Assembly: GCF_009914755.1 (NCBI RefSeq)
Contig: NC_060929.1
Length of the DNA stretch: 64,000 nt
Reading direction: 5' to 3' (one strand)
Origin: the human T2T-CHM13v2.0 reference genome, Homo sapiens
In this document: in pieces, positions 38,636 through 63,747 of the stretch
Position numbering within the stretch: the stretch's first letter is position 1
How the letters are laid out: every line of letters begins with the position of its first letter
The notes under the pieces: generated by a model
The model's input: the letters and a program-made list of their open reading frames with translations, nothing else
Told to the model about the DNA's origin: nothing
Database searches by the model: none
Position numbers and translations under genes: made by a program

Positions 38636-40181
38636 GCAAGAAGATGAAAATTTTAACAGCCTTTTACAAAATGGAGATATTTTAAACAGTTCAACAGAGG
38701 AAAAGTTCAAAGCTCATGATAAAAAAGATTTTAACTTACCTGAATATGATTTGAATGTTGAAGAGCGATTAGTTCTAATTGAGAAAAGTGTTGACTCAAC
38801 AGCCACAGCTGATGACACTCACAAATTAGATCATATCAATATGAATCTTAATAAACTTATAACTAATGATACATTTCAACCAGAGATCATGGAAAGATCA
38901 AAAACACAGGATATTGTGCTTGGAACAAGCTTTTTAAGCATTAATTCTAAAGAGGAAACTGAGCACTTGGAAAATGGAAACAAGTATCCTAATTTGGAAT
39001 CCGTAAATAAGGTAAATGGACATTCTGAGGAAACTTCCCAGTCTCCTAATAGGACTGAACCACATGACAGTGATTGTTCTGTTGACTTAGGTATTTCCAA
39101 AAGCACTGAAGATCTCTCCCCTCAGAAAAGTGGTCCAGTTGGATCTGTTGTGAAATCTCATAGCATAACTAATATGGAGATTGGAGGGCTAAAAATCTAT
39201 GATATTCTTAGTGATAATGGACCTCAGCAGCCAAGTACAACCGTTAAAATCACATCTGCTGTTGATGGAAAAAATATAGTCAGGAGCAAGTCTGCCACAC
39301 TGTTGTATGATCAACCATTGCAGGTATTTACTGGTTCTTCCTCATCTTCTGATTTAATATCAGGAACAAAGGCAATTTTCAAGTTTGATTCAAATCATAA
39401 TCCCGAAGAGCCAAATATAATAAGAGGCCCCACAAGTGGCCCACAATCTGCACCTCAAATATATGGTCCTCCACAGTATAATATCCAATACAGTAGCAGT
39501 GCTGCAGTCAAAGACACTTTGTGGCACTCCAAACAAAATCCCCAAATAGACCATGCCAGTTTTCCTCCTCAGCTCCTTCCTAGATCAGAGAGCACAGAAA
39601 ATCAAAGTTATGCTAAACATTCTGCCAATATGAATTTCTCTAATCATAACAATGTTCGAGCTAATACTGCATACCATTTACATCAGAGACTTGGCCCAGC
39701 AAGACATGGGGAAATGTGGGCCATCTCACCAAACGACCGACTTATTCCTGCAGTAACTCGAAGTACAATCCAGCGACAAAGTAGTGTGTCCTCCACAGCC
39801 TCTGTAAATCTTGGTGATCCAGGCTCTACAAGGCGGGCTCAGATTCCTGAAGGAGATTATTTATCATACAGAGAGTTCCACTCAGCGGGAAGAACTCCTC
39901 CAATGATGCCAGGATCACAGAGACCCCTTTCTGCACGAACATACAGCATAGATGGTCCAAATGCATCAAGACCTCAGAGTGCTCGACCCTCTATTAATGA
40001 AATACCAGAGAGAACTATGTCAGTTAGTGATTTCAATTATTCACGGACTAGTCCTTCAAAAAGACCAAATGCAAGGGTTGGTTCTGAGCATTCTTTATTA
40101 GATCCTCCAGGAAAAAGTAAAGTTCCTCGTGACTGGAGAGAACAAGTACTTCGACATATTGAAGCCAAAAAGTTAGAAAAG
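38636..40181 (+). CDS. ERBIN: ERBIN large 1546-bp exon (Ser/Pro-rich linker, QEDENFNS...IEAKKLEK)
   Basis: ttttag acceptor, AAG|gtaatt donor; contains the 525-aa ORF from 38751. Confidence 0.97.
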
Positions 40182-42998
40182 GTAATTGAACATGAGTTTT
40201 TCATTATTTTCTTTATGAACTTAATTATTTTCCTTAAAAATGATGAAACAAGATTCTCTGAATTACTGATTATCTCTTTATATTCTAGGTGTTTTTCTCT
40301 GGTACTGGGAATAGAGTTCCAAATTTAAACTCAGCCAGGACAATTGGGATGATAATGTGTGTTTCTATCCTCTCCTTCACTCCCCACTGTTTCTAACAAA
40401 AATGTATTAATTTTATATGTTTATGTGTCTGTCTCTTTGAGATTGTGCACACATACTAAAAATACACGTACCTCTGTTCAGCATTTTCTGAACTTTGCTA
40501 TTAATAATTGTTGATTATCTAAATTTAAAAAATAGTTTACTATATAGTTAAGACAATAACAAAAAATGTATTGCAAATGTAAATATTTCATCTAATATTT
40601 TTTCCCCAGTCCACAGTATATGAACTAACATTGTCACTGACACAGATGGCTTCTGGCATGGCATTTATTCTTAACTTTTCTGAATTTCTACATTTCTGAC
40701 CTACTTAAACTCAGTTAAGTGTTTCTGTGGCTCTAGTGTTGCTTAGCAATAGTTGATTAAATAACTAATGCTCGTGTTCAATTTATAATTTTATGTGTAG
40801 ATGTTCATCTTTTGAAAGGAGTTAAAAATGTAGATACAGATATATATCCTTGTAAAACCAATATGAATGCCATAGTCATATGGCCCAAGTGTACAAGACA
40901 TGATTTTTCTTTAAGATTTAACTTTATACTTACTCACTAGATTTTACCCAAGCATTATCTTTCTTTCTTTATTAAATATAAAATGTGTTCTTAAAAACAG
41001 GTGAACATACAACTTCAATTAGCCATTTTTAAAAATTCCTTAAATAAAATTTTCAGAAATGCCTAAAATATATTAGTACCTCATATCAGTTTACATGAAA
41101 TCTCAGCCTATAATTGTTCTTTTTAGTGCAGTCCTCAACTTTAAATGAACTTTAAATAGGTAAATATCCACAAGCATTAGGCTACTTCATTCTCATCTAT
41201 GCATTTTATTTCATCTAGTAACTCTGTACACACTGTTGAGGCTATTTGAACTTTTGTGCTTTTTCTAAGGCACTTGGAAATTTCTTAAGCAGAAGAGTAA
41301 CATAGGTGTGTTTTATAAATAAATTTCTGGTGACGTTGTGGAACTAGATTTTAGAGGAAGAGGCTGTAGTCAAAGAGATTGAGTTATGATGCCGTTTAGT
41401 AATCTAGATAAGAAATGAAATGTGAACTTTTATCAGTGCAGTTAAGACAAATGAGTTCAAGAGAGAGCTCTGAAATAGACTTTTAACAAGAGTTTACTTC
41501 TGATTGAATATTCCTGTAATCAATCAGAAAGGAAAAGGGATAAAGCTTGAGATTGTGCCTTAAATAACTGGTTGTTGGGAATGTCTTTGGCTATTAGTGG
41601 ACATAGAGGAGGAGTAGGAGATTTGGAAGAAGAGATGAGTTTGGTTTTTATGTTCTGTGTAGTTTTCATCTTATATGGCTGTTTTCCTACTCCTGTCTGA
41701 CAGATATACCTGGATTTCAGTACATAAGAAGCAAGTAGTAACTATCTCATTGTTCAGTGTGCCAATCCGCTTTTTTTTTTAATTGCCTGAAATATTTACA
41801 TATTTTGAAATTCACGGTACGGGTTCTTGAAGAGTATATGACAGTAGTTTCCTAGTTGTTTTCACTAGTAATTTAGAGGTGTGAATTAGTTGATTGAAAC
41901 TAAAGAGAAGCCTTATGAGAAAAGAAACAGGGCAAACTGTGTCTGAACACAAATCTGCACCTGATAACTCCCATTTTCAAGGATATCATACTTTGAAGTT
42001 ACGAGGGGTGCTTGTTCTCTCATCATTTGCTTGCCCAGACTCCTGCCTTCCAGACCACTAGTTGACTACACTGTAGTATCTTCTAGCTCATCAGTTGGGA
42101 AGCATTTCTAGCAAATACCAAAGTATATATCCTGCCGTTACCATAACTCTACTGCATTCCTTTTAGGATATTTTATTCTCCATGTCTTTCTTAAATGTAT
42201 GCTGTGTTTGCCTGTTTCAGTTCTTAAAAAGTATTCACATGTGAGACTGCTTTTACCTAACATACGTGAAACTTTTATCTTAAATGGATTCATGTTTTAT
42301 AAACCACATTTTTAAAAGAATTTAAATTTTTAAAGAATTACTTTCAAAAAAATTTTTTAAAAAGCATTTAGAGAGAATTTTAGTCTTAACAGTTCCGAAT
42401 CCTAGCTGTGCTGCTCAGTTAGCTACTTGGACAAATAACTTTGACTTTCCTTACCTTGGTGGATTCATGTGTATGTTAGGTGCAATGAAAGGAACTACTA
42501 GGATTGTTTAAAAATTAGATGGGTTAATACATGCAAAGCACTTAGAAGGGTACCTGACACATATAACTAACTGCTAAATAAGTGTTTATTGCTATTATCT
42601 TCATCCTCATCATCACCATCTTTTAAATACAAAGAAATTATCAGCTGATTAAAGTTATTTTTTTAAAACAGCAGAATATTGTGCAATAGGTTATTTTATG
42701 ATGGTAAAATAATTATTTTTCTTAAAAATTTATAGTTCATAATTTTAAAATATAAACAGATTTCATACATCAAAGATTAAGGCTTTTTTTATTATTATAC
42801 TTTAAGTTTTAGGATACATGTGCACAACGTGCAGGTTTGTTTCATATGTATACATGTGCCATGTTGGTGTGCTGCACCCATTAACTCGTCATTTAGCATT
42901 AGGTATATCTCCTAATGCTATCCCTCCCCCCTCCCCCGACCCCACAACAGTCCCCAGTGTGTGATGTTCCCCTTCCTGTGTCCATCTGTTCTCATTGT

Positions 42999-46814
<3,816 letters not shown>

Positions 46815-46877
46815 TATGATGTTAGCTGGTTATTTTGCTCATTAGTTGATGCAGTTTCTTCCTAGCCTTGATGGTCT

Positions 46878-47890
46878 TTACAATTTGGCATGTTTTTGCA
46901 GTGGCTGGTACCGGTTGTTCCTTTCCATGTTTAGTGCTTCCTTCAGGAGCTCTTTTAGGGCAGGCCTGGTGGTGACAAAATCTCTCAGCATTTGCTTGTC
47001 TGTAAGGTATTTTATTTCTCCTTCACTTATGAAGCTTAGTTTGGCTGGATATGAAATTCTGGGTTGAAAATTCTTTTCTTTAAGAATGTTGGATATTGGC
47101 CCCCACTCTCTTCTGGCTTGTAGAGTTTCTGCCAAGAGATCAGCTGTTAGTCTGATGGGCTTCCCTTTTTGGGTAACCCAACCTTTCTCTCTGGCTGCCC
47201 TTAACATTTTTTCCTTCATTTCAACTTTGGTGAATCTGACAATTATGTGTCTTGGAGTTGCTCTTCTCGAGGAGTATCTTTGTGGCGTTCTCTGTATTTC
47301 CTGAATTTGAATGTTGGCTTGCCTTGCTAGATTTGGTTAGTTCTCCTGGATAATATCCTGCAGTGTTTTCCAACTTGGTTCCATTCTCCCCGTCACTTTC
47401 AGGTACACCAGTGAGACGTAGATTTGGTCTTTTCACATAGTCCCATATTTCTTGGAGGCTTTGTTCGTTTCTTTTTATTCTTTTTTCTCTAAACTTCTCT
47501 TCACGCTTCATTTCATTCATTTCGTCTTCCATCGCTGATACCCTTTCTTCCAGTTGATCGCATCAGTTACTGAGGCTTGTGCATTCGTCACATAGTTCTC
47601 GTGCTGTGGTTTTCAGCTCCATCGGGTCCTTTAAGGACTTCTCTGCATTGGTTATTCTAGTTATCCATTAGTCTAATTTTTTTTCAAAGTTTTTAACTTC
47701 TTTGCCATTGGTTTGAACTTCCTCCTTTAGCTCGGAGTAGTTTGATCTTCTGAAGCCTTCCTCTCTCAACTCATCAAAGTCATTCTCCGTCCAGCTTTGT
47801 TCCGTTGCTGGTGAGGAGCTGCGTTCCTCTGGAGGAGGAGAGGTGTTCTGATTTGTAGTTTCTGGTTTTTCTGCTCTGTTTTTTCCCCAT
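46878..47890 (-). pseudogene. L1 ORF1 (frameshifted)
   Basis: Fragments MEDEMNEMKREEK... and ...LNMERNNRYQPLQKHAKL are split between separate ORFs. Confidence 0.9.
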
Positions 47891-48199
47891 CTTTGTGGTT
47901 TTATCTACCTTTGGTCTTTGATGATGGTGATGTACAGATGGGTTTTTGGTGTGGATGTCCTTTCTGTTTGTTAGTTTTCCTTCTAATAGTCACAACCCTC
48001 AGCTGCAGGTCTGTTGGAGTTGACTGGAGGTCCACTCCAGACCCTGTTTGCCTGGGTATCAGCAGCACTGGCTGCAGAACAGCGGATATTGGTGAACCGC
48101 AAATGCTGCTGCCTGATCATTCCTCTGGAAGTTTTGTCTCAGAGGAGTACCTGGCCGTGTGAGGTGTCAGTCTGCCCCTACTGGGGGGTGCCTCCCAGT

Positions 48200-48916
48200 T
48201 AGGCTACTTGAGGGTCAGGGACCCACTTGAGGAGGCAGTCTGCCTGTTCTCAGATCTCAAGCTGCGTGCTGGGAGAACCACTACTCTCTTCAAAACTGTC
48301 AGACAGGGACATTTAAGTCTGCAGAGGTTATTGCTGTCTTTTGTTTGTCTGTGCCCTGCCCCCAGAGGTGGAGCCTACCGAGGCACGCAGGCCTCCTTGA
48401 GCTGTGGTGGGCTTCACCCAGTTCGAGCTTCCCAGCTGCTTTGGTTACCTACTCAAGCCTGGGCAATGGCGGGTGCCCCTCCCCCAGCCTCGCTGTGGCC
48501 TTGCAGTTTGATCTCAGACTGCTGTGCTAGCAATGAGCGAGGCTCCATGGGCGTAGGACCCTCCGAGCCAGTTGCGGGATATAATCTCCTGGTGTGCGGT
48601 TTGTTAAGCCCGTTGGAAAAGCGCAGTATTAGGGCAGGAGTGACCCGATTTTCCAGGTGCCATCTGTCACCCCTTCCTTTGACTAGGAAAGGGAATTCCT
48701 TGACCCCTTGTGTTTTCCAGGTGAGGCGATGCCTCACCCTGCTTCGGCTCAGGCATGGTGTGCTGCACCCACTGTTCTGCACCCACTGTCCGGCACTCCC
48801 CAGTGAGATGAACCCGGTACCTCAGTTGGAAGTGCAGAAAACACCCGTCTTCTGCGTCGCTCACGCTGGGAGCTGTAGACTGGACCTGTTCCTATTCGGC
48901 CATCTTGGCTCCTCCC
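48200..48916 (+). promoter_or_regulatory. L1 5'UTR including the antisense promoter region (faces ERBIN downstream exons) and the YY1 site at the L1 5' end
   Basis: GC-rich L1 5'UTR; GCCATCTT (YY1 site, reverse of AAGATGGC) at about 48899-48906; antisense promoter location taken from established L1 biology. Confidence 0.6.
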
Positions 48917-48930
48917 AATTTCTCGATTAA
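48466..48930 (+). CDS. L1 ORF0 (antisense 5'UTR ORF), open for 154 aa; expression unknown
   Basis: GCAATGG Kozak context; MAGAPPPASLWPCSLISDCCASN... matches the primate ORF0 N-terminus; stop TAA at 48928-48930 lies in the TSD. Confidence 0.6.
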   Translation: MAGAPPPASLWPCSLISDCCASNERGSMGVGPSEPVAGYNLLVCGLLSPLEKRSIRAGVTRFSRCHLSPLPLTRKGNSLTPCVFQVRRCLTLLRLRHGVLHPLFCTHCPALPSEMNPVPQLEVQKTPVFCVAHAGSCRLDLFLFGHLGSSQFLD

Positions 48931-50087
48931 GACATTTTTAAAAAGTGAAGATAGTCTCTGTATGTTTAGCTTGTAAAAATTTGTTTTAAATACCTATTTA
49001 TCAAGGATGATGATCTTGAATAATTTTCTGTTAAATATACTTATCTGTCAGAAACAATACCAATAAAATGTCAATAGAGACATTCGTATTTATATACACA
49101 CTTATATACGTACACACATAAAACTAACAAAAATAGAAATTTCAATAGAAATTTGGTATTTTCTTCATGATTTCATTATTAATCATCTCTTCTTCAGAAA
49201 ATATAGTTCAGAAGATTATTTCATAGTTTAGGTAATAACTGGTTCAAAAGATGAAATGTTAATGTACTGCTAGTAATTATCTGTCGGTGAGATTTGGGGA
49301 CTTTTTGATACATTTCTAAAATGTTTTCATTTTGAAAGATAAAATGGTAATGATAAATGCAATAGTAATCACAGAAGATGGGATTATTCAACAAACAGTG
49401 CTTTTTGAAAAACTTACAATTTTGATAAATAGGATTAAGATTAATAGATTAAGGTAAAAGTTATATATCAAGAAGGAATTCTGAAAGCAGAGACAAGGAG
49501 TTCAACCTGGTTGAATTAAAGATGTATTTTGAGAACATTTGATAATAAAGTATGAATATTAGAAAGTCATAATATATAAAGTTTATTTGGTATTTACAAA
49601 GTGCCAGAAACTACTATCACTGTACAGTTACCTTGCTATACAAATATTTCTCAATTTTCACATGAGTCCTGTGTGATATTTTTATTATCTCATTTTACCA
49701 TAAGGAAATTTAGGCACAGAAGAGTTAAGTAATTTTCCCAGGATGATATGTGTTACGTAGTGTAGAGGAATGACTTTAAAAGCCTATCAGAAGAATTTCA
49801 AGTTGACACAATAAACAAAAGAGAGCCACTATTATTTCCTGAGCATATAGAGTATTTTAGGATATCTTAGGCAAAAGTGTTCAGGATGAATTGATAAGAA
49901 GTAGCTTAGGAAACAGTTTCAATAATAAAACAGCCAAATGAGAGATACTTGAGCTGGGGTTTTGGCTCTCGTGGTGATGAGTCTGAAAAACACTTGGGTT
50001 AAAATTGTTTAGTTTTAGGGATGGAATGAGAAAAAAGATTGAAGAGGTAGCCAAGGTTTCTGATTTGAGATATTTGGTCATTAACCT

Positions 50088-50229
50088 TATTTAATTAATT
50101 AATTTTTTAAATAGAGACAGGGTCTCACTATGTTGCCCAGGCTGGTCTCAAACTCCTGGCCTCAAGCAATCCTCTTGCTTCAGCCTCTCAAAGTGCTGTG
50201 ATTACAGATGTGAGCCACCATGCCCTGCC
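50088..50229 (-). mobile_element. FLAM/Alu left monomer
   Basis: AGAGACAGGGTCTCACTATGTTGCCCAGGCTGG...GTGAGCCACCATGCC. Confidence 0.85.
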
Positions 50230-50817
50230 AAATCAATATTTTTTTAAAGTTCTGGTAGTTAAGGAAATGAAGTCTTTAAAGCATTGTGGTATAGTATAAA
50301 AGTTTGGCAAAAAATAGCTTAGTTGGTTTTGAATATATTGAATTTGATGTGATGACTGTGTGCAAGTAACATGGAACACAATACGATACTAGGTTTAGTG
50401 ATGCAAATTTGAGATACAAACCATGTGAATGAGTGAATTTTCCTAGGCAGTAATTATGTGGGATAAGAAAAAAGTGTGTTTTTAAGAGACTGAAAAGATA
50501 CATTGTTTTAAGTAATGTTAAATTGCTAAGATTGCTAGACATACTTATTATTTCAAAGAGCAGCCCATTCCAATTCAGTGATATGTACACCTTAAGATTT
50601 CTTCACCATCTTTCATCTTTTCCCCTCTTACCCACCATTAACTGCTAGAAATTTATTATTTTAAGGCAGGATGGTTTGAATAACCAAACATTTGTACCTA
50701 GATTTTACCTTTGTTCTTCCTTTAACCTAGGTAAGTGGTTTTCAAACTTTACTATATGGGGTCTATAAATAAAACTGTACATTCCGAGTGATTTCAGAGA
50801 TTTTCAGATTAATTTTG

Positions 50818-54093: not shown

Positions 54094-54237
54094 AGCATGC
54101 TGTCAAGGTCCTTTTATTCCAATTTTACTACTGTAAGCAGTTTTCACTGTGGCAGCTCTAGGGATCTGCATGGCAGCCAGGGCAGTCTTGCCTTGAGTGT
54201 TGCAGACAGAAGAGGTTCTGGTGGGCACATTTTTCGA
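54094..54237 (+). CDS. ERBIN: ERBIN alternative cassette exon, 48 aa (SMLSRSF...GGHIFR)
   Basis: CTAAT branch point, attcag acceptor, CGA|gtgagt donor; 144 nt, phase 0/0, open frame. Confidence 0.88.
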
Positions 54238-57385: not shown

Positions 57386-57508
57386 AAGCATCCCCAGACA
57401 TCCAGTTCAGGAGATCCTTGTCAAGATGGTATATTCATTTCAGGACAGCAGAACTACTCATCAGCCACACTTAGTCACAAAGATGTTCCTCCAGACAGCT
57501 TGATGAAA
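57386..57508 (+). CDS. ERBIN: ERBIN alternative cassette exon, 41 aa (KHPQTSSSGDPCQD...DSLMK)
   Basis: cattag acceptor, AAA|gtgggt donor; 123 nt, phase 0/0. Confidence 0.9.
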
Positions 57509-60240: not shown

Positions 60241-60447
60241 ATGCCTTTGAGTAATGGACAGATGGGCCAGCCTCTCAGGCCTCAGGCAAATTATAGTCAA
60301 ATACATCACCCCCCTCAGGCATCTGTGGCAAGGCATCCCTCTAGAGAACAACTAATTGATTACTTGATGCTGAAAGTGGCCCACCAGCCTCCATATACAC
60401 AGCCCCATTGTTCTCCTAGACAAGGCCATGAACTGGCAAAACAAGAG
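60241..60447 (+). CDS. ERBIN: ERBIN exon, 69 aa (MPLSNGQ...LAKQE), skippable in frame
   Basis: tcttag acceptor, GAG|gtaaga donor, 207 nt. Confidence 0.95.
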
Positions 60448-61532: not shown

Positions 61533-61625
61533 ATTCGAGTGAGGGTTGAAAAGGATCCAGAACTTGGATTTAGCATATCAGGTGGTGTCGGGGGTAGAGG
61601 AAACCCATTCAGACCTGATGATGAT
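61533..61625 (+). CDS. ERBIN: ERBIN PDZ exon 1 ([31 protein letters not shown])
   Basis: actcag acceptor, GAT|gtaagt donor; GLGF-type loop ELGF. Confidence 0.96.
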
Positions 61626-62091
61626 GTAAGTTTTCTTTGTATATTCTTGAAACACCTATAAAGTTTTATTTACCGATTGAATACTTAAATGTAAGTGAAA
61701 ATCTAATAGATGTTTATGTAAATCTAGGTAGACATCACCTGGATTCCCCACTCTATTGCTTACCTTTTTGTTTTGTAATTTGATCAGTTCAAGTTAAAAC
61801 AATTTAACCAAAAACTATGAATGTTTATGATATAATGAAATGATTTTTAACTTTCTTATTGCTTTTTCACACACCTATAAAAGTAATTTTATTACTCTCA
61901 AGAGAAATCACTAAAGTCAGAATTACTAGAGGTAAAAATAACTAGTTTGTTACAGTATTACTCAGAGAAGTCAGGGAGAAAACTTGTACCATGATTCAAA
62001 TATTTGCATGGTGTGGAGGAAAAATTGCTCCTTGGTACTCTGTTATTTATACATACTGTTTTTAGTTAAATAATTTTTTTTGTTGTTAAAG

Positions 62092-62166
62092 GGTATATTT
62101 GTAACAAGGGTACAACCTGAAGGACCAGCATCAAAATTACTGCAGCCAGGTGATAAAATTATTCAG
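62092..62166 (+). CDS. ERBIN: ERBIN PDZ exon 2 ([25 protein letters not shown])
   Basis: ttaaag acceptor, CAG|gtaatt donor, 75 nt. Confidence 0.96.
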
Positions 62167-62260
62167 GTAATTAAAATAAATCTTTTTTTTTTTCATTTTA
62201 TAACACTCTAATGTTTTCACAGTTTAAAATGTTTTCACTTTAACTTTGAAAATTGTGGGT

Positions 62261-62386
62261 GGGAGGCTGAGGCAGGAGAATGGCGTGAACCCGGGAGGCG
62301 GCACTTGCAGCGAGCCGAGATCGCGCCACTGTACTCCAGCCTGGGCGACAGAGCGAGACTCTGTCTCAAAAAAAAAAAAAAAAAAA
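62261..62386 (+). mobile_element. 5'-truncated AluY (right arm only)
   Basis: GAATGGCGTGAACCCGGGAGGCGG AluY diagnostic, CpG-rich, pure poly(A). Confidence 0.9.
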
Positions 62387-62972
62387 GTTTGATACATCAT
62401 AGGATTTTGTTTAAGCTCAGGAATGTTAATTTTTACTAATTTGAGGGGGATTAGAGTACCACTTCTTGGATGTGGGCTATTGTCCTTTCAGAAATGGAGA
62501 AGAAAAATTTTAAATCTGCGAAACTCATTTTTTCCTGTCCCCTCCTTTTCTTTGTTCATTCAGCTACTCATTTTACCTAAACACTTACAGTCTTAGAAGG
62601 AAGACAAACCTAGGACACAAGTATAGCTCTCATTTTCTACCCCTACTGTCACCGTTCTTAGCTGAGAACTAAAGAACTTAAAAAATAATCCTCAAACCAA
62701 AAAAAAAGGGAGAGAGAGACATTAATGTCTAATAGCTGAAAGTACAGATTCTGAAAGCCAGACTGCCTGAGTTTAAATTCTGGTCCCAACACTTTCTAAA
62801 AATAAAACTAATTAAAAAAAATTTTTTTTGAATAATTTTAAGCTTAGAAAAAAGCCACAAAAATACTACAACAAACACCAGTATTACATCAATTGGTCAC
62901 CAGTCGTTCATAATTTGCTACATTGTCTTTATCATTTATTCTCCTCTTTCTTCTCTTTTTCTCCCTCCCTCC

Positions 62973-62975
<3 letters not shown>

Positions 62976-63016
<41 letters not shown>

Positions 63017-63026
63017 ACACACACAC
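62976..63026. repeat. (CA)n microsatellite
   Basis: Visible directly. Confidence 0.95.
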
Positions 63027-63639
63027 AGTCACACTCACTCATACAGTTATACACATTTATTTTTCTGAACCATTTGGGTTTCAATTTGTGACTGAGCAAG
63101 TTACTTTGCCTCTCCATGCCTGGGCTTTCTCTTCTCTAAAATAAGATAGTGAAAGAATCTTTTTTGAGCATTATGAGAATCAAAGGATCTAATTCATATT
63201 ACACCCTTAGAATTGTGTGTTTGGTACACAGTAGAACCTCAGTAAATATTAAGCTTAATTGTAAGAAATATGGTGGTCTTGATGTGATGGCTCCAAGACA
63301 ATGGGAAGAGTAGCCCTTGCCCCCTGCTACGCTACAGTTTGGTCACCTCAGATACACATTAGCATTATACGACACCATGTCTGACATTATTTCTTAAGTA
63401 AGTGATTTCTAACATTGGGCTGCTACATAAGAATTGGCTGAGAAGTTGGACAAAATACACATTTTTAGACCCCATCTTCAGAGACTTTATTCCTTGGTTT
63501 GGGTAGGGCCTGTGAATCTGTATGTTATTTTAAGTTGCCAAAGTGATTCTTATTTTCTTCCAAGTTTGTGAACTACTTGGCAGAAATGCAAATAAATAAC
63601 TATAAAATGTTTTTCCTAAAAGCATTTTTCCTCTTCTAG

Positions 63640-63747
63640 GCTAATGGCTACAGTTTTATAAATATTGAACATGGACAAGCAGTGTCCTTGCTAAAAACTT
63701 TCCAGAATACAGTTGAACTCATCATTGTACGAGAAGTTTCCTCATAA
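63640..63747 (+). CDS. ERBIN: ERBIN last coding exon ([15 protein letters not shown]...VREVSS*)
   Basis: ttctag acceptor; TAA at 63745-63747. Confidence 0.96.

What the first reader, a model, noticed from the sequence alone, without database searches (positions are those of the whole stretch)
48466..48726. Candidate L1 ORF0-Erbin PDZ fusion: open ORF0 with a strong donor exactly in frame with all downstream ERBIN exons
Seen: ORF0 starts at 48466 in a good Kozak context (GCAATGG) and has no stop before TTC CAG|GTGAGG at 48720/48721, exactly 255 nt (85 codons, phase 0). The downstream ERBIN acceptors at 54094, 57386, 60241 and 61533 are all phase 0. Of the two usual ORF0 donors, the one after nt 106 is destroyed (CCAG|TTGCGG at 48571) and the one after nt 191 (48656) is weak and phase 2, which would favour the third site. 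Established: the L1 antisense promoter drives ORF0, and ORF0 can splice to downstream host exons. Inference: a 245-aa (via 60241) or 176-aa (via 61533) protein could be made, with an ORF0 N-terminus and the intact PDZ but no LRRs. It might compete for PDZ ligands such as ERBB2 and p0071/delta-catenin.
Basis: partly seen in the sequence, partly recalled or inferred. Interest (0 to 1): 0.85.

Follow-up and report, generated by a model that had tools for sequence, protein, structure and literature searches.

The report
L1 ORF0 in frame with ERBIN
An old, dead L1 retrotransposon in an ERBIN intron carries an antisense ORF0 that could on paper splice in frame onto the exons for Erbin's PDZ domain, but this layout is a family trait of many L1 copies and I found no evidence that the fusion is made.

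Summary
The ATG is at 48466 in GCAATGG. 255 nt stay open to CAG|GTGAGG at 48720/48721. Donor 1 is destroyed and donor 2 is weak and in phase 2. All six downstream ERBIN exons are phase 0 and open.

The host is a full-length, coding-dead, older L1PA element (42784-48916, minus strand, 5'UTR about 1026 nt). The "open ORF0 reaching a third donor" is not special to this copy. In 88 other L1 5'UTRs of the same genome, 72 share its frame state, and 32 of those are open from ATG to that donor. The 15 young-type copies have one base fewer, and 12 of them show the canonical 71-codon ORF0. At least 3365 genomic sites carry the older state.

The copy-specific features are the lost donor 1, an intact CGA at codon 25, and a CAG rather than CGG/CGA at the third donor.

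I found no sign of use. None of RefSeq's 18 transcripts starts here. ERBIN/ERBB2IP is absent from an EST catalogue of 988 L1-antisense genes. Eight literature searches found no human report.

Verdict: a real but latent and generic configuration. The fusion protein is unproven.

The parts
42784..48916 (-). Full-length older L1PA retrotransposon, about 6.13 kb, antisense to ERBIN. Its poly(A) reads as a T-run from 42784 on the + strand. Its coding frames are broken.
   Evidence: ends. (longest minus-strand ATG ORF is 167 aa). (4278 first-look candidates in the same genome; best other copies 93% identical).
47871..47890 (-). Start of L1 ORF1. It sets the 5'UTR at about 1026 nt (47891-48916).
   Evidence: a 20-nt motif typed from recall, 1 mismatch, 0.02 expected by chance.
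48250..48465 (+). Presumed L1 antisense-promoter and leader zone upstream of ORF0. It has no ATG and is colinear with sister copies. Promoter activity was not tested.
   Evidence: no upstream ATG from 48104 to 48465. (28 of 29 nearest copies cover the whole 271-nt query, mean 92.1% identity, median 0 gaps). (4 CpG, observed/expected 0.25).
48466..48720 (+). ORF0, 85 codons from the ATG to the third donor. Unspliced, the same frame runs to a TAA at 48928-48930 (154 aa).
   Evidence: No Pfam family at E<=1. No confident fold from a single sequence, mean pLDDT 51.9.
48538..48540 (+). Codon 25, CGA, intact here. The same codon is a stop in 17 of 72 class-B sister copies.
48569..48577 (+). Donor 1 position (after nt 106), CAG|TTGCGG. 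The GT is lost in this copy.
   Evidence: GT is kept in 75 of 88 other copies.
48654..48662 (+). Donor 2 position (after nt 191), CAG|GTGCCA. It is phase 2 and a poor consensus match.
   Evidence: (score below 2). (fusions from it hit stops).
48657..48666 (+). The site of the one-base length difference that separates the long-frame (older) ORF0 class from the 71-codon (young) class.
   Evidence: aligned copies; 72 copies with the extra base against 15 without it.
48718..48726 (+). Donor 3, CAG|GTGAGG, phase 0. It is the best consensus donor in the L1 antisense strand.
   Evidence: GT is kept in 86 of 88 copies, but only 17 of 72 class-B copies read CAG|GT.
54094..54237 (+). Alternative ERBIN exon (48 codons, phase 0-0). 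It is the nearest annotated acceptor.
   Evidence: and the hub table.
57386..57508 (+). ERBIN exon (41 codons, phase 0-0). It is the nearest acceptor of the selected transcript.
   Evidence: and the hub table.
60241..60447 (+). ERBIN exon (69 codons, phase 0-0).
61533..63747 (+). The last three ERBIN coding exons (61533-61625, 62092-62166, 63640-63747; 91 aa plus stop). They encode the PDZ domain.
   Evidence: Erbin PDZ chains 7lul_A and 1mfg_A, residues 5-35 of 95. (PF00595, E 1.3e-05, profile positions 26-51 of 81).
40289..50791 (+). Alternative terminal exon of other RefSeq transcripts. It reads 35 codons and then a stop, and it carries the whole L1, ORF0 included, in its 3'UTR. AATAAA lies at 50768.
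   Evidence: Hub table. (poly(A) signal, acceptor). (reading frame).

Best explanation
This is an ordinary, fixed, coding-dead, full-length L1PA element of an older subfamily, lying antisense in the ERBIN intron between exons 38636-40181 and 57386-57508.

Its antisense ORF0 has the older 'long-frame' form, which has one base more than the young form after donor 2. The frame therefore skips the canonical stop and runs through the third GT donor to the end of the L1.

This copy kept the ATG and codon 25, lost donor 1, and has CAG at donor 3. It therefore offers a latent alternative first exon (ATG 48466, donor 48720) in frame with all ERBIN 3' exons.

Most likely the site is silent, or gives only rare aberrant transcripts where L1 promoters are derepressed, and it has no dedicated function.

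Shown here: the anatomy, the class trait and the PDZ content. Inferred: the silence or low use.
For: - Anatomy.
- Class trait: of 88 other L1 5'UTR copies, all 88 keep the ATG. 72 share this copy's frame state, with donor 3 at 255 nt in 55 of the 72 and the frame open from ATG to donor 3 in 32 of the 72.
- Young type: the 15 copies one base shorter have a stop at codon 72 in 12 of 15, and 0 of 15 are open to donor 3.
- Link to age: the distance from the ORF0 ATG to the ORF1 ATG has a median of 575 nt in the long-frame class and 455 nt in the young class.
- Abundance: the window's 24-mer across the length difference occurs 3365 times in the genome at up to 2 mismatches.
- No sign of use: the hub's RefSeq table lists no exon beginning in the L1 among 18 transcripts.
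- No sign of use: ERBIN and ERBB2IP are absent from the 10 supplementary files of Criscione 2016, which cover 988 genes and 2015 ESTs. The look-up worked for UVRAG.
- No sign of use: they are also absent from the supplements of Honda 2020 (1 file) and Jonsson 2019 (5 files).
- Literature: 8 full-text searches pairing ERBIN or ERBB2IP with L1, ORF0 or antisense-promoter terms gave no human report.
- Base rate: 57 of about 3200 genic ORF0 loci were seen fused (Criscione 2016 passage citing Denli 2015).
- CpG decay is typical: 26 CpG in the 5'UTR against 13-28 in the nearest copies and 27-40 in young copies.
Against: - The site is as good as such a site can be. It has a strong Kozak context, no upstream ATG, a donor scoring above all 20 ERBIN donors in the window, and every acceptor in phase 0.
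- Older L1PA antisense promoters do drive transcripts. 626 of 2015 ESTs came from pre-Ta primate-specific L1s, L1PA2-8 start in the same 5'UTR zone, and an L1PA6-UVRAG transcript was validated.
- EST catalogues are shallow: 609 of 988 genes rest on one EST.
- This copy's CpG count is in the upper part of its relatives; only 4 of 26 have as many.
- Only 8 of 72 class-B copies combine an open frame with a donor score of 6 or more. That is 7 of the 29 nearest copies and 1 of the 43 others. The copy is therefore in a minority.
- I could not look at any RNA-seq, CAGE, Ribo-seq or GENCODE data. Denli 2015 and its list of 57 fusions are not held.
Confidence: 0.72

Rival explanations
1. One reading: the L1 antisense promoter of this copy fires in hypomethylated cells (early embryo, placenta, testis, tumours). 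The first exon splices from 48720 to an ERBIN acceptor, and an ORF0-Erbin protein of 176-334 aa is translated, with the PDZ domain but no LRRs.
For: - In-frame, stop-free fusions through all four acceptors.
- A strong donor and Kozak context with no upstream ATG.
- The PDZ is encoded entirely by the last three exons.
- ORF0-exon fusions and L1PA2-8 antisense transcripts are documented.
- An independent mouse L1 antisense transcript splices to downstream Erbb2ip exons in testis (Li 2014, PMC3985663, passage).
Against: - No transcript model, EST-catalogue entry or paper supports it (hub table; searches).
- The element sits inside a transcribed gene body and is CpG-decayed.
- The layout is generic to the L1 class, so it carries no signal of selection.
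- At another locus, a validated L1-UVRAG Sanger read contains L1 sequence downstream of the donor-3 position and runs out of the L1. This kind of donor is therefore not obligatorily used (passage; the primer design favours such products).
Confidence: 0.15
2. The antisense promoter fires but the RNA stays unspliced. It ends at one of the poly(A) signals downstream and encodes at most the 154-aa long ORF0 (48466-48930). No Erbin part is made.
For: - The frame is open to 48930.
- 14 AATAAA/ATTAAA hexamers lie between 48721 and 54093, including the one used by the annotated end at 50791.
- Criscione 2016 states that ORF0 is typically encoded within the L1 and unspliced.
Against: A cap-proximal consensus donor such as 48720 is normally used and suppresses nearby poly(A) sites (established knowledge, not tested here). 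There are no data on transcription either way.
Confidence: 0.08
3. Donor 48720 acts within ERBIN pre-mRNA as the end of a cryptic L1-derived exon (acceptor at 48365/48366). This gives frame-broken, unstable ERBIN transcripts rather than a promoter-driven fusion.
For: A pyrimidine-rich acceptor precedes 48366. The resulting exon would be 355 nt (length mod 3 = 1) with 5 stops in phase 0. Criscione 2016 notes that antisense L1s carry cryptic splice sites and are exonised.
Against: No such exon appears in RefSeq's table. The long alternative exon 40289-50791 reads straight through both sites.
Confidence: 0.05

Closest known systems
L1 ORF0 and ORF0-exon fusion loci (Denli et al. 2015, Cell 163:583). 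I did not see the paper. I know it from passages in Criscione 2016 and Honda 2020, and from recall.
   Same: An antisense ORF in a primate L1PA 5'UTR, downstream of the antisense promoter. It starts at the same ATG in a strong Kozak context, and GT donors allow fusion to host exons. The L1 lies antisense in a host intron, so ORF0 faces downstream exons.
   Different: The canonical ORF0 has 71 codons and two internal donors. Here the frame is the older long form (85 codons to donor 3, 154 unspliced), donor 1 is destroyed and donor 2 is weak. Only a third donor, which lies beyond the stop in the young form, could make a fusion. No expression evidence exists for this locus. I could not check whether ERBIN is among Denli's 57 fusions.
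L1 antisense-promoter chimeric transcripts (Criscione et al. 2016, PMC4908685; passages and supplements searched).
   Same: An older primate L1PA (L1PA2-8 type 5'UTR) inside a gene, oriented so that antisense-promoter transcription is sense to the gene. L1PA6-UVRAG is a validated example.
   Different: ERBIN/ERBB2IP is not among the 988 genes. Most catalogued transcripts are not predicted to code.
Mouse antisense L1 fusion transcript spliced to Erbb2ip exons (Li et al. 2014, PMC3985663; one passage seen).
   Same: The same host gene, with an L1 antisense promoter and splicing to downstream exons. It is expressed in testis.
   Different: The mouse promoter lies in ORF1, not the 5'UTR (passage). 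The insertion is independent, and no ORF0 exists in mouse.
Erbin PDZ domain (PDB 1mfg, 1n7t, 7lul and others).
   Same: The last three exons encode it. Exon 61533 matches 31 of 31 residues.
   Different: In the hypothetical fusion the LRR and linker regions are replaced by an 85-residue ORF0 part with no recognised family or confident fold.

Membership tests
Full-length primate L1PA element | Recognisable 5' end, 5'UTR, ORF1 start, 3' poly(A) and many near-identical copies in the genome | tested here: met
   (4278 first-look candidates; 39 other scored matches at 91-93% identity).
Full-length primate L1PA element | Intact ORF1 and ORF2 (retrotransposition competence) | tested here: not met
   the longest minus-strand ATG ORF in 42500-49000 is 167 aa.
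L1 ORF0 locus (Denli 2015) | ATG in a strong Kozak context on the antisense strand of the L1 5'UTR, about 450 nt from the L1 5' end | tested here: met
   The ATG is 451 nt from the L1 end at 48916. The same column is ATG in 88 of 88 other copies.
L1 ORF0 locus (Denli 2015) | 71-codon ORF ending before the third GT site | tested here: not met
   The frame is open for 154 codons. The 71-codon form is seen in 12 of 15 young-type copies and in 0 of 72 copies of this copy's class.
   Donor 1 is CAG|TT. Donor 2 keeps its GT but scores below 2 and is in phase 2.
L1 ORF0 locus (Denli 2015) | Transcribed from the L1 antisense promoter and translated | not testable with these tools
   No expression data are on hand.
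ORF0-host exon fusion | Donor phase matches the acceptor phase and the frame stays open to the host stop codon | tested here: met
   334, 286, 245 and 176 aa, with 0 internal stops.
ORF0-host exon fusion | Observed splice junction or junction peptide | not testable with these tools
   No transcript model in the hub table has it. No paper was found.
Catalogued L1 antisense-promoter chimeric transcript (Criscione 2016) | Host gene listed among the 988 genes supported by spliced ESTs | tested here: not met
   0 of 10 supplementary files mention ERBIN or ERBB2IP. The positive control UVRAG was found in 3 files.
PDZ domain (Pfam PF00595), Erbin PDZ | The sequence downstream of acceptor 61533 encodes the whole domain | tested here: met
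   exon 61533 equals residues 5-35 of the 95-residue Erbin PDZ chains; exon 62092 matches profile positions 26-51 of 81. That the last exon completes the domain is inferred from lengths (31+25+35 = 91 residues).

The most novel reading that the evidence does not exclude
The older 'long-frame' ORF0 class puts a strong third donor inside the ORF in a large number of primate L1s. Extrapolating from the sample, roughly 80-370 copies may combine an open frame with a strong donor. The ERBIN copy would be one where this yields a real primate-specific mini-Erbin: an ORF0 head plus the PDZ domain and no LRRs. It would be made from the L1 antisense promoter in hypomethylated cells (early embryo, placenta, germ line, tumours), and it would compete with full-length Erbin for PDZ ligands.
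Probability: 0.05. Interest if true: 0.6.

Novelty: new member of a known kind. Interest (0 to 1): 0.2.

Why it matters
If the fusion were made, a retrotransposon promoter would uncouple Erbin's PDZ domain from its LRR scaffold in cells that lose DNA methylation. That would be a concrete route from L1 derepression to altered ERBB2 and catenin signalling, and it would also be a tumour-specific junction peptide.

As it stands, the value is mainly cautionary. The in-frame layout is what many older L1 copies offer by descent. It is not evidence of function.

ERBIN's own alternative 3'UTR exon (40289-50791) covers ORF0. Plain + strand RNA coverage there therefore proves nothing. Only 5' ends and junctions from 48720 count.

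The class-level point may be worth a genome-wide look. The long-frame ORF0 carries an in-frame third donor, and one base separates it from the 71-codon form.

Tried and rejected
1. In-frame exonisation. I suspected that a cryptic exon from the acceptor before 48366 to 48720 might insert in frame into ERBIN. It is 355 nt, breaks the frame and has 5 stops. Rejected as a coding variant and kept only as a minor rival.
2. CpG retention as a sign of a germline-unmethylated, active promoter. This copy has 26 CpG in the 5'UTR, within the 13-28 range of its nearest relatives, and 4 of 26 have as many. It is not an outlier.
3. Private damage to the promoter zone. None was seen; the zone is colinear with 28 of 29 nearest copies. 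This neither supports nor refutes activity.
4. Pfam on the 85-aa ORF0 part gave 0 families at E<=1.
5. AlphaFold2 on the ORF0 part from a single sequence gave mean pLDDT 51.9 and pTM 0.34. This is uninformative and is not evidence of disorder.
6. Denli 2015 is not held, so I could not see its list of 57 fusions or its treatment of older subfamilies.
7. Paper reading closed. I therefore could not search the supplements of Garza 2023 (PMC10619931), and I could not open the Sanger junction sequences of Criscione's file 7 to see which donors validated transcripts use.
9. Subfamily naming (L1PA4-7?) could not be done, because no L1 reference sequences are on hand. I give only 'older class with the long 5'UTR'.
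10. I built no consensus of L1 copies. All comparisons are per copy.

Full report
**1. The observation**

- ATG lies at 48466-48468 within TGGGCAATGGCGG.
- The frame is open for 255 nt, or 85 codons, to 48720, followed by GTGAGG.
- The position-106 donor reads CAG|TT, so it is lost.
- The position-191 donor reads CAG|GTGCCA and is in phase 2.
- The six downstream ERBIN coding exons (54094, 57386, 60241, 61533, 62092, 63640) all have lengths divisible by three, have AG acceptors and are stop-free in phase 0.
- Joined in a script, ORF0 plus the exons from each acceptor give 334, 286, 245 and 176 residues without an internal stop. Use of donor 2 runs into stops at codons 67-103.
- No ATG lies between 48104 and 48465.
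- On a donor matrix that I recalled (approximate, not from a tool), 48720 scores 7.44. That is above all 20 annotated ERBIN donors in the window, whose maximum is 6.17 and mean 3.5. No other GT in 48300-48930 exceeds 2.2.

**2. What carries it**

The ORF lies on the antisense strand of a full-length L1.
- The poly(A) reads as a T-run from 42784. The 5' end is at 48916.
- The ORF1 start is at 47890 on the minus strand, which gives a 5'UTR of about 1026 nt.
- The longest minus-strand ATG ORF is 167 aa, so the element is coding-dead.
- A search of the window's own genome found 4278 first-look candidates. The 39 other scored matches are 91-93% identical over 301 nt. Over 501 nt, the 29 that were fetched as loci and aligned are 88-93% identical.
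- I cannot name the subfamily, because no L1 references are on hand. The long 5'UTR and the mutual divergence indicate an older L1PA class.
- NCBI's repeat mask stops at 48702, so the last 214 nt of the L1, donor 3 included, are unmasked.

**3. Is the open frame special?**

No. I compared 88 other L1 5'UTR copies per copy and built no consensus. The sample was made up as follows:
- the 29 nearest copies;
- 30 chr1 copies containing a published 20-nt ORF0 primer printed;
- 29 chr1 copies with the window's exact 24-mer 48650-48673. One duplicate, L061 = L031, was dropped.

All 88 keep the ATG. They fall into two length states just after donor 2.

| Feature | Class with the extra base (like this copy) | Class one base shorter |
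|---|---|---|
| Copies | 72 | 15 |
| Donor 3 position | 255 nt in 55 of 72 | 254 nt in 11 of 15 |
| Open from ATG to donor 3 | 32 of 72 | 0 of 15 |
| Stop at codon 72 (the 71-codon ORF0 of the literature) | 0 of 72 | 12 of 15 |
| Frame of 150 codons or more, or no stop within the segment | 17 of 72 | 0 of 15 |
| Median distance, ORF0 ATG to ORF1 ATG | 575 nt | 455 nt |

One further copy had a larger deletion. The distance difference ties the long frame to the long-5'UTR, older elements.

Other points from the census:
- The window 24-mer that spans the length difference occurs 3365 times in the genome at up to 2 mismatches and 672 times exactly, with 0 in the reversed control.
- The weak donor 2 is also a class trait, reading GTGCCA or GTGCCG in 65 of 72.

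What is particular to this copy:
- Donor 1 has lost its GT, which is kept in 75 of 88 other copies.
- Codon 25 is still CGA. It is a stop in 17 of 72 class-B copies, as expected from CpG decay to TGA.
- Donor 3 reads CAG|GT, as in 17 of 72. CGG|GT or CGA|GT are common elsewhere.

An open frame together with a donor-3 score of 6 or more is found in 8 of 72 copies. That is 7 of the 29 nearest copies and only 1 of the 43 others. The sample is not random. The nearest set is biased towards this copy, and the exact-24-mer set is biased towards decayed copies. Extrapolating 2-11% of at least 3365 sites gives very roughly 80-370 such copies genome-wide. This is my inference.

**4. The Erbin side**

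- Exon 61533-61625 matches Erbin PDZ chains residue for residue, at residues 5-35 of the 95-residue chains 7lul_A and 1mfg_A.
- Exon 62092-62166 hits Pfam PDZ (E 1.3e-05, profile positions 26-51 of 81).
- The last three exons (91 residues) therefore encode the domain, and any of the four fusions would keep it.
- The nearest acceptors are 54094 (an alternative exon) and 57386.
- The 85-residue ORF0 part has no Pfam family. It has no confident single-sequence fold, with mean pLDDT 51.9, which is uninformative. It is rich in Ser, Leu, Pro and Gly and has 6 Cys.

**5. Evidence on use**

None is positive.
- The hub's RefSeq table lists 18 transcripts, and none has an exon starting in the L1.
- Criscione 2016 (PMC4908685; passages and supplements searched) catalogued 988 genes with L1-antisense spliced ESTs. 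ERBIN and ERBB2IP occur in 0 of its 10 supplementary files. The control UVRAG was found.
- They are also absent from the supplement of Honda 2020 (1 file) and from Jonsson 2019 (5 files).
- Eight full-text searches pairing ERBIN or ERBB2IP with ORF0, L1PA, L1 antisense promoter, LINE-1 chimeric transcript, or retrotransposon plus antisense promoter found no human report.
- The only relevant hit is Li 2014 (PMC3985663, one passage). It describes a mouse antisense L1 transcript spliced to downstream Erbb2ip exons in testis. The insertion and the promoter are independent of the human case.

Base rates from Criscione's text:
- 57 of about 3200 genic ORF0 loci were seen fused (citing Denli 2015, which is not held).
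- L1PA2-8 antisense starts lie in the first 600 bp of the 5'UTR.
- 626 of 2015 ESTs come from pre-Ta primate-specific L1s.
- 609 of 988 genes rest on one EST.

So older copies can fire, and the catalogues are shallow.

CpG content does not single this copy out. It has 26 CpG in the 5'UTR, against 13-28 in 26 nearest copies (4 of which have 26 or more) and 27-40 in young copies. The promoter zone is colinear with 28 of 29 nearest copies at 92.1% identity.

**6. Complications for anyone testing it**

- Other RefSeq transcripts have a terminal exon at 40289-50791. It reads 35 codons and then a stop and ends 23 nt after an AATAAA at 50768. This is a PDZ-less isoform whose 3'UTR contains the whole L1 in this orientation. 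Sense-strand coverage over ORF0 is therefore expected without any antisense-promoter activity.
- A pyrimidine-rich acceptor before 48366 could pair with donor 48720 to make a 355-nt, frame-breaking cryptic exon. Junctions from 48720 alone do not prove promoter use, and 5' ends are needed.
- A validated L1PA6-UVRAG Sanger read printed contains L1 sequence downstream of the donor-3 position and runs past the L1 end. At that locus the transcript was not spliced at this kind of site, although the primer design favoured such products.

**7. Mechanism and verdict**

Best reading (0.72): this is a latent, generic configuration inherited from the L1 class. It is silent or used only at noise level, and it has no dedicated function.

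Rivals:
- A real ORF0-Erbin PDZ isoform in hypomethylated cells (0.15 for a detectable transcript; about 0.05 for a stable protein with the proposed competitor role).
- An unspliced antisense RNA encoding at most the 154-aa long ORF0 (0.08).
- Cryptic exonisation (0.05).

Compared with known systems, it works like the ORF0-exon fusions of Denli 2015. It fails two defining features of the canonical ORF0, namely the 71 codons and the two internal donors. It would be a third-donor variant available only to the older class. It is a new, untested member of a known kind. Interest is low (0.2) unless junction data say otherwise.

**Limits**

There were no expression data. GENCODE was not available. 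Denli 2015 and its supplements were not seen. Paper reading closed, so the supplements of Garza 2023 and the validated junction sequences of Criscione's file 7 were not examined.

Noticed in passing
window 48657-48666, and loci L002-L090: ORF0 comes in two length classes that differ by one base just after donor 2. The older class has the long 5'UTR (median 575 nt from the ORF0 ATG to the ORF1 ATG). There the frame skips the canonical stop, runs through the third donor in phase 0 and can reach the L1 end (17 of 72 copies have 150 codons or more, or no stop within the segment). The young class (median 455 nt) has the 71-codon ORF0 (12 of 15). I could not check whether this is described in Denli 2015.
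   Followed up: partly
window 48538-48540, and sister copies: Codon 25 of ORF0 is a CGA. It has become a stop in 17 of 72 class-B copies, which looks like a CpG-decay hotspot and is the commonest way these ORF0s die. This copy escaped it.
   Followed up: partly
window 40289-50791: An alternative terminal ERBIN exon of other RefSeq transcripts. It has an acceptor at 40288/40289, reads 35 codons and then a stop, and has AATAAA at 50768. This predicts a PDZ-less Erbin whose roughly 10.4-kb 3'UTR contains the entire antisense L1. It will confound RNA coverage over ORF0.
   Followed up: partly
window 48703-48916: NCBI's repeat mask ends at 48702, although the L1 runs to 48916. The first 214 nt or so of the L1, including donor 3, are unmasked.
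   Followed up: yes
window 42775-42783 and 48917-48933: A candidate 9-nt target-site duplication (GATTAAGGC on the left, GATTAAGAC on the right) is separated from the L1 5' end by 8 unexplained bases (48917-48924). These may be untemplated or transduced bases, or the duplication may be a chance match.
   Followed up: no
window 48344-48366: A strong pyrimidine tract plus CAG acceptor lies on the + strand inside the L1 5'UTR. Paired with donor 48720 it would define a 355-nt, frame-breaking cryptic exon.
   Followed up: partly
literature (PMC3985663, one passage): Mouse Erbb2ip also has an antisense-L1-initiated transcript spliced to its downstream exons, in testis, where the conventional transcript was not detected. 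This is an independent parallel at the same gene.
   Followed up: no
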